From Naegleria gruberi (Eukaryota): a stretch of DNA of 64,000 bases. The DNA is taken from assembly GCA_000004985.1 (NCBI GenBank), contig GG738848.1; one strand, 5' to 3'. Both the position numbers and the translations under genes were made by a program. The notes beneath the pieces are model-generated. The model had not been told where the DNA came from. It ran no database searches and saw only the letters and a program-made list of their open reading frames with translations. Below are positions 62,286 to 63,155 of this stretch, piece by piece (position 1 is the stretch's first letter; each line of letters starts with the position of its first letter).

Positions 62286-63155
62286 TTACAAATCCTCATC
62301 CTCTTCAGGTATGTACAACAAGAAAGCGTCAAATTCCTTCTCCCAAACACCTATTGTCGAGAATAGTTGTGTTGTTTCTTGCGCATCAAATTGTTGTAAT
62401 TTCACAACAGGTTCAATTTTCATATTCAAATCATAAATCTTTCTAATTAAATATTCTACAGATTTCAATACATTGTAATTTACAATTGAGCTCAAGTCAA
62501 AATAACCAATATTTTTCTTTCTGTGGAATGTAATTTGTTTTGGTTTGACTTTTCTATCCTTTTCATCTACTTTTGTACCACAAAGCACCATTCTATTTGA
62601 TGATGTTAGATTTCTCTTATCCAATGCATAATTTCCCATCCTAAACCACAACGGAGTATTCTTATAAGTCATTCTAGAAAGAGAGTTAAACATGATCATG
62701 AAACAATCTGCATCTTTGAGGAATATACAATCATCACTTAATAATAAATCATTCACAAGTGATGGATTAATTTCAGTGTGTGGATCATTTGAACACAACT
62801 CCCAAATTTCCAAGTAAAAGAGTGGAATTAGGAATTTAACTGATGTAATAGTTGCATAATAATAATCATTCAACTGTAAATTCCTCACCATTTTAGATTG
62901 AAATCTACTTGTAAAAGTTGATTTACCAACATTACTATCACCTAATAAAACTAATTTAATTCTTCTCGGAGGTGAATTAATTTTATATTTCAAGCCTGGT
63001 AATGTTGATTCATTCATTCCGATAAAAGAATCATCAAGAATAATTTTGGTTAATTCTTCTTCTTCTTGTATATTATTTGGAGTAGAATTTGTAACCTCAT
63101 GTTTGCATCGTTTATTGTCGATTGTGGTGACAATATGTTGTTGATCTCTTTTCAT
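62286..63155 (-). CDS. Ran-like small GTPase paralogue (289 aa) with degenerate nucleotide-binding motifs (probable pseudo-GTPase) and a ~75-aa N-terminal extension.
   Basis: Aligns to Ran over ~210 aa: '[15 protein letters not shown]' (Ran 'KLVLVGDGGTGKTTF'), '[27 protein letters not shown]' (Ran '[25 protein letters not shown]'), '[39 protein letters not shown]' (Ran '[39 protein letters not shown]'), and C-terminal 'PEEDEDL' (Ran 'DEDDDL'). Switch II 'WDTAGQE' is replaced by 'WELCSND' plus an insertion, and NKVD is replaced by TKVD. Confidence 0.7.
   Translation of the reverse strand: [289 protein letters not shown]

What the first reader, a model, noticed from the sequence alone, without database searches (positions are those of the whole stretch)
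62286..63155. Ran-like GTPase paralogue lacking the DTAGQ switch II but retaining Ran's acidic DEDL tail
Sequence similarity to Ran extends through G1, the Ran-specific '[17 protein letters not shown]' region, 'LCGxKVDxKDRKVKxKxIxFHRKKNxxYxD' and the Ran-unique C-terminal acidic tail ('PEEDEDL' versus Ran 'DEDDDL'), which in Ran binds RanBP1. Switch II, however, is 'WELCSNDPH' instead of 'WDTAGQE'. That loses both the gamma-phosphate-binding Gly and the catalytic Gln. NKVD is replaced by TKVD. A ~75-aa N-terminal extension precedes the G domain. This looks like a Ran-derived pseudo-GTPase that may still engage Ran-binding partners without cycling.
Basis: partly seen in the sequence, partly recalled or inferred. 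Interest (0 to 1): 0.65.

Follow-up and report, generated by a model that had tools for sequence, protein, structure and literature searches.

The report
Divergent switch-less Ran paralogue, Naegleria gruberi
This is a real, intact gene of the amoeboflagellate Naegleria gruberi for a highly diverged copy of the nuclear-transport GTPase Ran; it has lost both GTP-sensing switches but kept Ran's basic patch and acidic tail, and it is already listed in a published catalogue of Naegleria GTPases, so it is a modest curiosity rather than a discovery.

Summary
Window 62286..63155 (-) is one uninterrupted 289-codon ORF, and its best relatives by far are Ran proteins (PDB E 4.5e-24, against 2e-8 for Rabs). 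G1 is intact (GDSNVGKS). Switch II reads WELCSND instead of WDTAGQE, G4 is TKVD, G5 is SSI, the FHRKKN basic patch is unchanged, and the protein ends PEEDEDL. No other frame and no GT..AG splice restores DxxGQ, so the intron/frameshift refuter fails.

The organism is Naegleria gruberi (Heterolobosea), not an amoebozoan. The exact 289-aa sequence is already published: Herman et al. 2021, BMC Biol 19:142, Table S8, entered as 'Ran', a newly created gene model on ACER01000055.1. It is one of seven N. gruberi Ran or Ran-like genes, two of which are canonical.

Conservation is mosaic. Of the Ran columns that are at least 90% conserved, 2 of 24 are kept in the two switches and 23 of 28 in beta5-G5. 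Codon usage is gene-like. This argues against a decaying pseudogene.

Switch-II-degenerate Ran-likes with acidic tails recur elsewhere (38 of 216 homologues examined). No orthologue was found, and no expression or biochemical data exist.

Best reading: a lineage-specific, non-cycling Ran derivative. The function is inferred, not shown. TKVD is not a defect, because Rac uses TKxD.

The parts
62286..63155 (-). Complete CDS of the divergent Ran paralogue: 289 aa plus the TAA stop at 62286..62288. It has a single exon.
   Evidence: ORF list. Single in-frame tblastn HSP to human Ran. Identical to the 'Ran / ACER01000055.1**' entry in Herman et al. 2021 Table S8. Coding-potential score is +0.23 bits/codon in frame, against -0.77 and -1.10 in the shifted frames.
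62961..63155 (-). N-terminal extension (aa 1-65) that precedes beta1 of the G domain. It is predicted to be disordered and has no recognisable domain.
   Evidence: AF2 pLDDT is below 50 for residues 13-57. Pfam finds nothing there. Similarity to the N-terminal extensions of the N. fowleri and N. lovaniensis Ran-likes is not significant (E 0.1-0.45). An in-frame stop lies 4 codons upstream of the ATG.
62919..62942 (-). G1 / P-loop, GDSNVGKS (aa 72-79). It is intact and fits GxxxxGK[ST].
   Evidence: Alignments A1 and A3. G72, G77 and K78 are invariant. 10 of 15 highly conserved Ran columns are kept in the beta1-P-loop-alpha1 region.
62844..62894 (-). Switch I equivalent (aa 88-104), degenerate. 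Ran T42 aligns with D97 in alignments A1 and A3, although another alignment places T102 there.
   Evidence: Only 1 of 8 conserved Ran columns is kept. AF2 pLDDT is below 50 for residues 88-101.
62778..62804 (-). Degenerate G3 / switch II, W118-E-L-C-S-N-D-P-H, where Ran has W-D-T-A-G-Q-E-K-F. The changes are D65->E, G68->S and Q69->N.
   Evidence: Read directly from the DNA (codons shown). Alignments. Only 1 of 16 conserved Ran columns is kept across switch II and alpha2.
62736..62777 (-). Insertion and replacement of the alpha2 region after switch II (aa 127-140, [14 protein letters not shown]). Ran's K71, F72 and R76 have no counterpart here.
   Evidence: Alignments A1 and A3.
62646..62678 (-). 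Start of alpha3, [11 protein letters not shown] (aa 160-170), which is Ran-like (Ran has [11 protein letters not shown]).
   Evidence: Alignments. phmmer alignment to Ran.
62472..62591 (-). The best-conserved block (aa 189-228): beta5, G4 (TKVD, 62565..62576), KDRKVKPK, the basic patch FHRKKN (62511..62528), beta6 and G5 (SSI, 62484..62492).
   Evidence: 23 of 28 highly conserved Ran columns are kept. AF2 pLDDT is about 85-93. This is the only segment that also matches the N. fowleri and N. lovaniensis Ran-likes by tblastx.
62289..62420 (-). Ran-type C-terminal extension (aa 246-289): a linker, a predicted helix (aa 258-280) and the acidic tail PEEDEDL (62289..62309). There is no prenylation cysteine.
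   Evidence: AF2 secondary structure. The tail aligns with Ran's PDEDDDL. RanGDP structures are the best-fitting PDB matches (3gj3 rmsd 3.2 A).
63156..63304 (.). 149-bp spacer between the divergently oriented start codons of the Ran-like gene and its neighbour. It is presumably a shared promoter region, which is an inference.
   Evidence: Coordinates. No functional test was made.
63305..64000 (+). Neighbouring gene, arranged head-to-head. It is the N-terminal 231 aa of a small RCC1-like-repeat protein and runs off the end of the window. This is context only; it is not shown to be functionally linked.
   Evidence: Pfam WD40_RLD at E 0.0017. It is 82% identical to the N. gruberi protein P0264, which hits RLD at 1.7e-12 and RPGR/UVR8 at 1e-4 to 1e-2.

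Best explanation
The ORF is a genuine single-exon gene of Naegleria gruberi. [quoted passage not shown]

Shown by sequence:
- The P-loop, the guanine-specificity motif (TKVD), the alpha3 surface, the KDRKVK/FHRKKN basic surface and the Ran-type C-terminal helix plus acidic tail are retained.
- Both gamma-phosphate sensors are replaced: switch I, and DxxGQ of switch II together with the alpha2 helix that carries K71, F72 and R76.

Inferred:
- The protein probably still holds a guanine nucleotide.
- It cannot undergo the canonical spring-loaded conformational change, cannot be stimulated by RanGAP through Gln69, and cannot be carried by NTF2 through Phe72.
- It would therefore sit in one fixed conformation. 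Through the preserved basic face and acidic tail it would bind a subset of Ran ligands, independently of the Ran gradient. Candidate ligands are Ran-binding-domain proteins, karyopherin-type partners or an RCC1-like partner.
- It would act as a constitutive adaptor or decoy in a lineage-specific role.

Which partner it binds is unknown.
For: - Ran ancestry. PDB phmmer gives Ran at 4.5e-24, with the next family (Rab27/Rab7) at about 1e-8. Foldseek of the AF2 model returns only Ran in the top 50. In an NJ tree the Rab/Ras outgroups separate in 100% of bootstraps.
- Real gene, not an artefact. There is a continuous in-frame HSP. No DTAG or DxxGQ occurs in any of the six frames. None of 172 in-frame GT..AG excisions, and no excision of any length, restores the motif. 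Codon usage resembles neighbouring genes. The probability of an open frame by chance is 2e-11.
- Selective, mosaic retention. Conserved Ran columns are kept at 10/15 (P-loop region), 1/8 (switch I), 1/16 (switch II/alpha2), 10/20 (beta4-alpha3), 23/28 (beta5-G5) and 3/7 (alpha5).
- Independent curation reached the same gene model and did not flag it as a pseudogene (Herman et al. 2021 Table S8). Canonical Ran genes coexist with it.
- The same combination recurs in other Ran-likes: degenerate G68/Q69, FHRKKN kept and an acidic tail kept. It is seen in N. fowleri FDP41_001384, N. lovaniensis C9374_004706 and a four-gene tandem array on a metagenome contig. This suggests a viable functional state rather than random decay.
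Against: - There is no evidence of transcription or translation. The gene is absent from the official N. gruberi protein set and from the protein collections searched.
- No orthologue exists in N. fowleri, N. lovaniensis or metagenomes, so purifying selection cannot be measured.
- Naegleria GTPase families show birth-and-death evolution with many pseudogenes (Herman et al. 2021, Suppl. Material 4).
- Nucleotide binding is not assured. G5 is SAK->SSI, and D65->E may weaken Mg2+ coordination.
- The AF2 model is only moderate overall (mean pLDDT 66.9), and it was built from a Ran-dominated alignment.
- Partner binding is entirely inferred from conserved patches and from textbook knowledge of Ran complexes.
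Confidence: 0.55

Rival explanations
1. The gene is a non-functional or dying lineage-specific duplicate. It would be a young relic of the birth-and-death turnover of Naegleria GTPase genes whose open reading frame has simply not yet been broken.
For: It is specific to N. gruberi, with no 1:1 orthologue. It is not in the official annotation. It lies outside the block that is syntenic with N. fowleri. The curators report many pseudogenes and rapid turnover in these families. It is the most divergent of all the Ran-like sequences compared.
Against: About 65% of residues differ from any Ran, yet there is no stop or frameshift in 289 codons of a 30% GC sequence (chance about 2e-11). The divergence is strongly mosaic (23/28 against 2/24 conserved columns), whereas neutral decay would be uniform. 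Codon usage is in-frame and gene-like. The curators did not mark it as a pseudogene.
Confidence: 0.25
2. It is still an active GTPase that cycles by a non-canonical mechanism. Other residues or a dedicated GAP would supply catalysis in trans, as Rap does without Gln61.
For: The P-loop GxxxxGKS and the TKVD G4 motif are intact, and TKxD is functional in Rac. N123 occupies the Gln69 position.
Against: The DxxG glycine is lost, and it is needed for the switch II response to the gamma-phosphate. The switch I threonine is probably lost as well. The whole alpha2 region is replaced by an insertion. RanGAP and RCC1 both dock on switch II (established knowledge of Ran complexes).
Confidence: 0.15
3. 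It is an annotation or sequence artefact. The degenerate switch II would result from an unrecognised intron, a frameshift or an assembly error in an otherwise canonical ran gene.
For: About a third of Naegleria genes have introns. The official annotation has no gene model here.
Against: There is a single continuous in-frame HSP across residues 5-216 of Ran. The other frames are full of stops and contain no DTAG or DxxG[QH]. No GT..AG excision restores the motif. Divergence is spread over both switches, G5 and alpha5, not confined to one spot. An independent manual gene model is identical.
Confidence: 0.02

Closest known systems
Canonical Ran / Gsp1 (nucleocytoplasmic transport GTPase, Ras superfamily)
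   Same: It is the best sequence and fold match. The shared features are the P-loop, alpha3 (SRxTYKN.P.W), LCG[NT]KVD.KDRKVK.K.I.FHRKKN, the C-terminal helix and the acidic tail ending in L, with no lipid-modification motif.
   Different: Identity is only 33-40%. Switch I and switch II/alpha2 are replaced (WELCSND for WDTAGQE; 2 of 24 conserved columns kept). G5 is SSI. It has a 55-aa longer, disordered N-terminus and two insertions. The residues Ran uses for RanGAP catalysis (Q69) and for NTF2 binding (K71, F72, R76) are absent.
Divergent Ran / Ran-like paralogues of Naegleria (Herman et al. 2021, BMC Biol 19:142, Suppl. Material 4 and Table S8)
   Same: This very sequence is one of the seven N. 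gruberi entries ('Ran', ACER01000055.1**, a newly created model). [quoted passage not shown] N. fowleri FDP41_001384 and N. lovaniensis C9374_004706 also have N-terminal extensions, a degenerate switch II (WDYQNEN / WDYQNDN) and an insertion after it; only the N. lovaniensis protein ends in an acidic tail (DDDDEL).
   Different: It has no F-box or zinc-finger extra domain, unlike several of its paralogues. There is no 1:1 orthologue in N. fowleri. Grouping with the N. fowleri and N. lovaniensis genes is not robust: 67% with sparse sampling, 12% with broad sampling and 1% with the switches masked. The loci are not syntenic. The loss of switch II is not described in the paper's text.
Nucleotide-binding but GTPase-deficient small GTPases and pseudoGTPases (Rnd1-3, RhoH, RGK proteins; class definitions of Stiegler and Boggon 2020, recalled from knowledge and cited in PMC13393502)
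   Same: The P-loop and base-recognition motifs are retained, while catalytic and switch residues are substituted. The predicted outcome is a constitutive, non-cycling state.
   Different: Those examples derive from the Rho and Ras families and are mostly membrane-anchored. This protein derives from Ran and is soluble, with Ran's tail. Its biochemical status is untested, so its class cannot be assigned.
Other switch-II-degenerate Ran-likes in environmental and protist data (for example the four-gene tandem array on contig ERZ27256376 k141_93299 = L007; also P0148, P0169, P0174, P0179)
   Same: They combine altered G68/Q69 with a retained FHRKKN patch. Most, though not all, also keep an acidic C-terminus. 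38 of 216 Ran homologues examined deviate at G68/Q69.
   Different: Most keep D65 and are shorter, with no long N-terminal extension. Their organisms are unknown. No supported phylogenetic link to the window gene was found.

Membership tests
Ran family (Ras superfamily) | Ran is the closest family by sequence, clearly ahead of Rab, Ras, Rho and Arf. | tested here: met
   PDB phmmer gives Ran at 4.5e-24 (88.9 bits), against the best non-Ran match, Rab27B, at 2e-8. All hits in the large protein searches are Ran or Ran-like.
Ran family (Ras superfamily) | Phylogenetic placement with Ran sequences to the exclusion of Rab/Ras outgroups. | tested here: met
   In the NJ tree the Rab7, Rab1 and HRas outgroups separate in 100% of 300 bootstraps, and the query falls among Ran-likes. 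Its position inside the family is unresolved.
Ran family (Ras superfamily) | Ran-specific C-terminal extension ending in an acidic DEDDDL-type tail, with no prenylation motif. | tested here: met
   The protein ends ...[9 protein letters not shown]. A helix is predicted at aa 258-280, and there is no C-terminal Cys.
Ran family (Ras superfamily) | Ran basic patch and alpha4 block (KDRKVK...FHRKKN). | tested here: met
   [17 protein letters not shown] is identical to the Ran consensus. 23 of 28 conserved columns are kept in aa 189-228.
Canonical, cycling Ran (functional orthologue of Ran/Gsp1) | G3 motif DTAGQ, with the gamma-phosphate Gly68 and the catalytic Gln69. | tested here: not met
   The sequence is ELCSN (aa 119-123). 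No frame or splice variant restores the motif.
Canonical, cycling Ran (functional orthologue of Ran/Gsp1) | Switch I with Tyr39 and Thr42, and alpha2 with Lys71, Phe72 and Arg76 (the NTF2, RCC1 and RanGAP contact residues). | tested here: not met
   Only 1 of 8 (switch I) and 1 of 16 (switch II/alpha2) conserved columns are kept, and the alpha2 region is replaced by an insertion. The exact placement of T42 depends on the alignment (D97 in A1 and A3, T102 in the alignment).
Canonical, cycling Ran (functional orthologue of Ran/Gsp1) | G1 (GxxxxGK[ST]), G4 ([NT]KxD) and G5 (SAK) nucleotide-binding motifs. | tested here: inconclusive
   G1 (GDSNVGKS) and G4 (TKVD) are acceptable, but G5 is SSI. 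Sequence alone cannot show whether a nucleotide is bound.
Canonical, cycling Ran (functional orthologue of Ran/Gsp1) | One-to-one orthology with Ran of other eukaryotes. | tested here: not met
   Herman et al. list 'orthologs outside Heterolobosea: yes' only for XP_002679238.1, and the field is blank for this gene. The exhaustive search finds no hit above about 50% identity, and those hits cover only the core.
PseudoGTPase (nucleotide-binding, catalytically dead class) | Substitution of catalytic and switch residues in an otherwise preserved G-domain fold. | tested here: met
   The AF2 model keeps the G-domain topology, with pLDDT of 85-93 over aa 150-240. The fold search returns Ran.
PseudoGTPase (nucleotide-binding, catalytically dead class) | Demonstrated lack of GTP hydrolysis, and a defined nucleotide-binding status. 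| not testable with these tools
   This needs recombinant protein, with nucleotide loading by HPLC or mant-nucleotides and GTPase assays.
PseudoGTPase (nucleotide-binding, catalytically dead class) | The gene is expressed and maintained by selection, so it is not a pseudogene. | tested here: inconclusive
   The intact ORF, mosaic conservation and codon usage favour maintenance. There are no expression data and no orthologue for a dN/dS estimate.

The most novel reading that the evidence does not exclude
The gene may represent an unrecognised functional class: Ran-derived, switch-less 'frozen' proteins. They would have arisen repeatedly or early in protists (Naegleria species and the organism behind the tandem array on L007). 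They would keep only Ran's basic face and acidic tail, and would bind Ran-binding-domain, karyopherin or RCC1-like partners independently of the RanGTP gradient. In this locus the partner might be the RCC1-like-repeat gene transcribed divergently from the same 149-bp spacer.
Probability: 0.12. Interest if true: 0.55.

Novelty: already known. Interest (0 to 1): 0.3.

Why it matters
Ran is usually a single-copy, extremely conserved gene (stated in PMC13393502). Expanded Ran families with paralogues that have shed the GTP switch while keeping the partner-binding tail and basic patch are therefore unusual. If such a protein were shown to be expressed and to bind RanBP1-type or karyopherin-type partners without cycling, it would be a natural 'frozen Ran'. 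That would be useful for understanding how Ran-system surfaces can be re-used, and it would add a Ran-derived case to the pseudoGTPase group.

As things stand, the gene is one catalogued entry among more than 350 Ras-superfamily genes of N. gruberi. It has no orthologue, no expression data and no genetic tools, so its immediate impact is small.

Tried and rejected
1. Intron, frameshift or assembly explanation for the degenerate switch II. Rejected, for three reasons. There is a single in-frame HSP. No DTAG or DxxG[QH] occurs in any frame within 200 nt either side of the gene. None of 172 in-frame GT..AG excisions, and no excision of any length, restores the motif.

2. Amoebozoan or Dictyostelium origin, or a giant-virus origin, which I considered first because of the 21-32% GC content and long ORFs. 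Rejected. The G-alpha ORF at 57335..59308 is 100% identical to an N. gruberi protein, and the window carries ordinary eukaryotic housekeeping genes.

3. Orthology with N. fowleri FDP41_001384 and N. lovaniensis C9374_004706. A first NJ tree gave 67% support for a group including them. This collapsed to 12% with broader sampling of divergent Ran-likes and to 1% with the switch regions masked. The N-terminal extensions are not significantly similar, and the loci are not syntenic. I treat the relationship as unresolved.

4. Looking for the gene or a close relative in public protein and contig collections. The exact look-ups found nothing. The exhaustive phmmer search found nothing closer than about 50% identity over the core. 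The metagenome DNA scan found nothing.

5. Functional link to the RCC1-like neighbour. Only adjacency was established. The RCC1-like signal is weak in the window fragment (E 0.0017) and moderate in the 82% paralogue (1.7e-12). The N. fowleri and N. lovaniensis Ran-like loci have no such neighbour. I did not adopt it as part of the explanation.

6. N. gruberi genomic context could not be fetched. That genome is not in the contig index.

7. A literature search for characterised Ran-derived pseudoGTPases returned nothing useful. The pseudoGTPase review (PMC7544640) is not held in the library.
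Full report
**What is there**

Window 62286..63155 on the minus strand is a single open reading frame of 289 codons, from ATG to TAA. An in-frame stop lies four codons upstream of the ATG. Pfam assigns the product to the Ras family (PF00071, E 1.2e-13).

A sequence search of all PDB chains puts Ran far ahead of every other small GTPase. Ran scores 4.5e-24 (88.9 bits), and the next family, Rab27/Rab7, scores about 1e-8. tblastn of human Ran against the whole window gives one continuous in-frame alignment. 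It covers Ran residues 5-216, runs over 62978..62289, and has 32.5% identity and E 7e-29. There is nothing else in the window.

**Motifs**

- G1 is intact (GDSNVGKS, aa 72-79).
- Switch II reads W118-ELCSNDPH where Ran has WDTAGQEKF. This gives D65->E, G68->S and Q69->N.
- G4 is TKVD.
- G5 is SSI instead of SAK.
- The block [30 protein letters not shown] is almost pure Ran consensus.
- The protein ends IPEEDEDL.

- About 13 residues are inserted after switch II, in place of helix alpha2. Ran's K71, F72 and R76 therefore have no counterpart.
- About 5 residues are inserted before beta5.
- Switch I is also degenerate. Ran T42 aligns with D97 in A1 and A3, although another alignment places T102 there.
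- The N-terminal extension is 65 residues before beta1, which is 55 more than in human Ran. It has no domain hit and is predicted to be disordered.

**Artefact check**

This fails on three counts.

- The other two sense frames are full of stops.
- No frame of either strand within 200 nt of the gene encodes DTAG or DxxG[QH].
- None of the 172 in-frame GT..AG excisions that keep the frame open, and no excision of any length that keeps both G1 and FHRKKN, creates a DxxGQ-like motif.

The ORF is not a chance one. With a stop probability of 0.081 per codon, 289 open codons have a probability of about 2e-11. A codon-usage log-likelihood trained on 15 other long ORFs of the window gives +0.23 bits/codon in frame. 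The shifted frames give -0.77 and -1.10. The in-frame value is within the range of neighbouring genes, which score 0.23-0.56.

**Organism and prior knowledge**

The G-alpha ORF at 57335..59308 is 100% identical over 657 aa to a Naegleria gruberi protein. The region from about 47.4 to 58.5 kb is collinear with a Naegleria fowleri contig carrying spatacsin, an unknown gene and G-alpha.

The Ran-like protein itself is absent from the public protein collections, so it is not in the official gene set. The exact 289-aa sequence is nevertheless printed in Herman et al. 2021 (BMC Biol 19:142, PMC8296547), Additional file 10, Table S8. It appears there as 'Ran', with ID 'ACER01000055.1**'. The double asterisk means a newly created gene model. 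The pseudogene, extra-domain and 'orthologs outside Heterolobosea' fields are all blank.

Their Supplementary Material 4 makes these statements:

- Expanded Ran families are rare.
The gene is already catalogued. What the paper does not spell out is the loss of the switches in this particular paralogue.

**Relatives**

An exhaustive HMMER scan of 1.84 billion representative proteins found 1329 hits. None was closer than about 50% identity over the conserved core, and the two top scorers are tandem-Ran fusions. A DNA-level scan of metagenome contigs found no close relative.

Two Naegleria proteins resemble the query in style: N. fowleri FDP41_001384 and N. lovaniensis C9374_004706.

- They have an N-terminal extension and a degenerate switch II (WDYQNEN / WDYQNDN).
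- They have an insertion after switch II.
- The N. lovaniensis protein ends in DDDDEL.

A first NJ tree grouped the query with them and with a metagenomic Ran-like at 67% bootstrap. That support did not survive further testing.

- It fell to 12% with broader sampling of divergent Ran-likes.
- It fell to 1% when the switch regions were masked.
- The N-terminal extensions are not significantly similar.
- The loci share no synteny.

I therefore treat the gene as a lineage-specific paralogue whose position inside the Ran family is unresolved. This agrees with the curators.

The phenotype itself is not unique. Of 216 Ran homologues with an alignable G3, 38 deviate at G68 or Q69. Nearly all of these keep FHRKKN or a close variant, and many keep an acidic tail. 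One metagenome contig (L007) carries four tandem Ran-like genes with WDLDAAS, WDLNGAS or WDLDGAS and acidic tails.

**Pattern of conservation**

I took the 99 alignment columns that are at least 90% conserved among 84 Ran homologues (A2) and counted how many the query keeps.

| Region | Conserved columns kept |
|---|---|
| beta1 - P-loop - alpha1 | 10 of 15 |
| Switch I - beta2 - beta3 | 1 of 8 |
| Switch II - alpha2 | 1 of 16 |
| beta4 - alpha3 | 10 of 20 |
| beta5 - G4 - alpha4 - beta6 - G5 | 23 of 28 |
| alpha5 | 3 of 7 |

This mosaic is not what uniform neutral decay of a dead gene would give. It indicates long-term constraint on the face of the protein opposite the switches, and on the nucleotide-pocket elements G1 and G4.

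The AlphaFold2 model (mean pLDDT 66.9, pTM 0.60) is confident for aa 150-240, with pLDDT of about 82-93 in most ten-residue blocks and one dip to 68. Confidence is low for the N-terminal extension and for switch I. The model predicts a C-terminal helix at aa 258-280. Foldseek against the PDB returns only Ran in the top 50, and the RanGDP forms superpose best (3gj3, rmsd 3.2 A over 192 columns). The model was built from a Ran-dominated alignment, so it shows compatibility with the Ran fold rather than providing independent proof.

**How it most likely works**

Shown by sequence:

- The elements that hold a guanine nucleotide are largely present. These are GxxxxGKS and TKVD.
- The elements that sense the gamma-phosphate and catalyse hydrolysis are gone. 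These are the switch I Thr (probably), the DxxG glycine and Gln69.
- The helix carrying the residues Ran uses for NTF2, and for part of the RCC1 and RanGAP interfaces, is also gone.

Inferred from established knowledge of Ran complexes:

- The protein probably binds nucleotide constitutively or weakly.
- It cannot toggle between GDP and GTP conformations.
- It is blind to RanGAP and NTF2.
- The strongly preserved basic surface (KDRKVK, FHRKKN), alpha3 and the C-terminal helix plus acidic tail are the parts of Ran that contact karyopherins, RCC1, RanGAP and Ran-binding domains. They also dock on each other in RanGDP.
- Their retention suggests a fixed-state adaptor or decoy that still uses one or more of these contacts.

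Which partner it binds, and whether it is expressed at all, is unknown. I put this reading at about 0.55.

**Rival readings**

| Reading | Confidence | Comment |
|---|---|---|
| Dying lineage-specific duplicate | 0.25 | For it: no orthologue, unannotated, outside the syntenic block, families known for birth-and-death turnover. Against it: the intact frame, the mosaic conservation and the codon usage. |
| Still-active GTPase with a non-canonical mechanism | 0.15 | |
| Intron, frameshift or assembly artefact | 0.02 | |

**Context**

The gene sits head-to-head, across a 149-bp spacer, with an ORF that begins at 63305 and runs off the end of the window.

- The window fragment gives only a weak RCC1-like-domain hit (E 0.0017).
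- Its only database relative is an 82% identical N. gruberi protein on another scaffold.
- That protein matches the RCC1-like domain at 1.7e-12, and RPGR/UVR8 at 1e-4 to 1e-2.

A Ran derivative next to an RCC1-like-repeat gene is suggestive. It is a single, unconserved adjacency, however. The N. fowleri and N. lovaniensis Ran-like loci have no such neighbour. I record it as an observation only.

**Verdict**

It is Ran-derived, switch-less and tail-retaining. 'Pseudo-GTPase engaging Ran partners' is plausible but untested. The taxon and the TKVD point were wrong.
- The gene is already catalogued with the same model in the literature as a divergent Ran paralogue, and similar switch-degenerate Ran-likes occur elsewhere.
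- Interest is modest at 0.3.

Noticed in passing
window 63305..64000 (+), spacer 63156..63304: The head-to-head neighbour of the Ran-like gene encodes the first 231 aa of a small RCC1-like-repeat protein. Its only database relative is an 82% identical N. gruberi protein (P0264, 315 aa) on a different scaffold. This copy therefore looks unannotated, and the gene has a recent paralogue. The Ran-like / RCC1-like adjacency is intriguing but is not conserved in N. fowleri or N. lovaniensis.
   Followed up: partly
window ~47400..58550 versus L002 (N. fowleri VFQX01000068.1) 10400..21400: [quoted passage not shown] Synteny ends at the G-alpha gene, and window 59.3-64 kb (small ORFs, the Ran-like gene, the RCC1-like gene) has no counterpart in the N. 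fowleri locus.
   Followed up: partly
L007 1..4268 (metagenome contig ERZ27256376 k141_93299; also L008): There are four tandem Ran-like genes of about 230 aa (one is cut by the locus end) in a 35% GC contig from an unidentified organism. All have a degenerate switch II (WDLDAAS, WDLNGAS or WDLDGAS), FHR[KR]KN and acidic C-termini. This is a local expansion of switch-degenerate Ran-likes.
   Followed up: partly
proteins P0001, P0115, P0116, P0117, P0118: Several database proteins carry two tandem Ran domains in one polypeptide, for example Saprolegnia parasitica SPRG_11234. Some may be gene-model fusions of tandem genes, and they inflate the scores at the top of the hit lists.
   Followed up: no
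window 60957..61979 (-): Three short ORFs on the same strand between G-alpha and the Ran-like gene (145, 85 and 128 aa) have no Pfam hit. They may be exons of one unannotated or lineage-specific gene.
   Followed up: no
window 28459..30723 (+): The acetyl-CoA-synthetase-like ORF (AMP-binding) has a far higher codon-usage score (1.9 bits/codon) than any other ORF in the window, and the score is positive in all three frames. This suggests an unusual composition relative to its neighbours.
   Followed up: no
window 18919..23495 (+): Xanthine-dehydrogenase-type domains are split between two consecutive ORFs (18919..21363 and 21525..23495). The MoCoBD_1 domain is divided across the gap, which is consistent with an intron of about 160 bp.
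   Followed up: no
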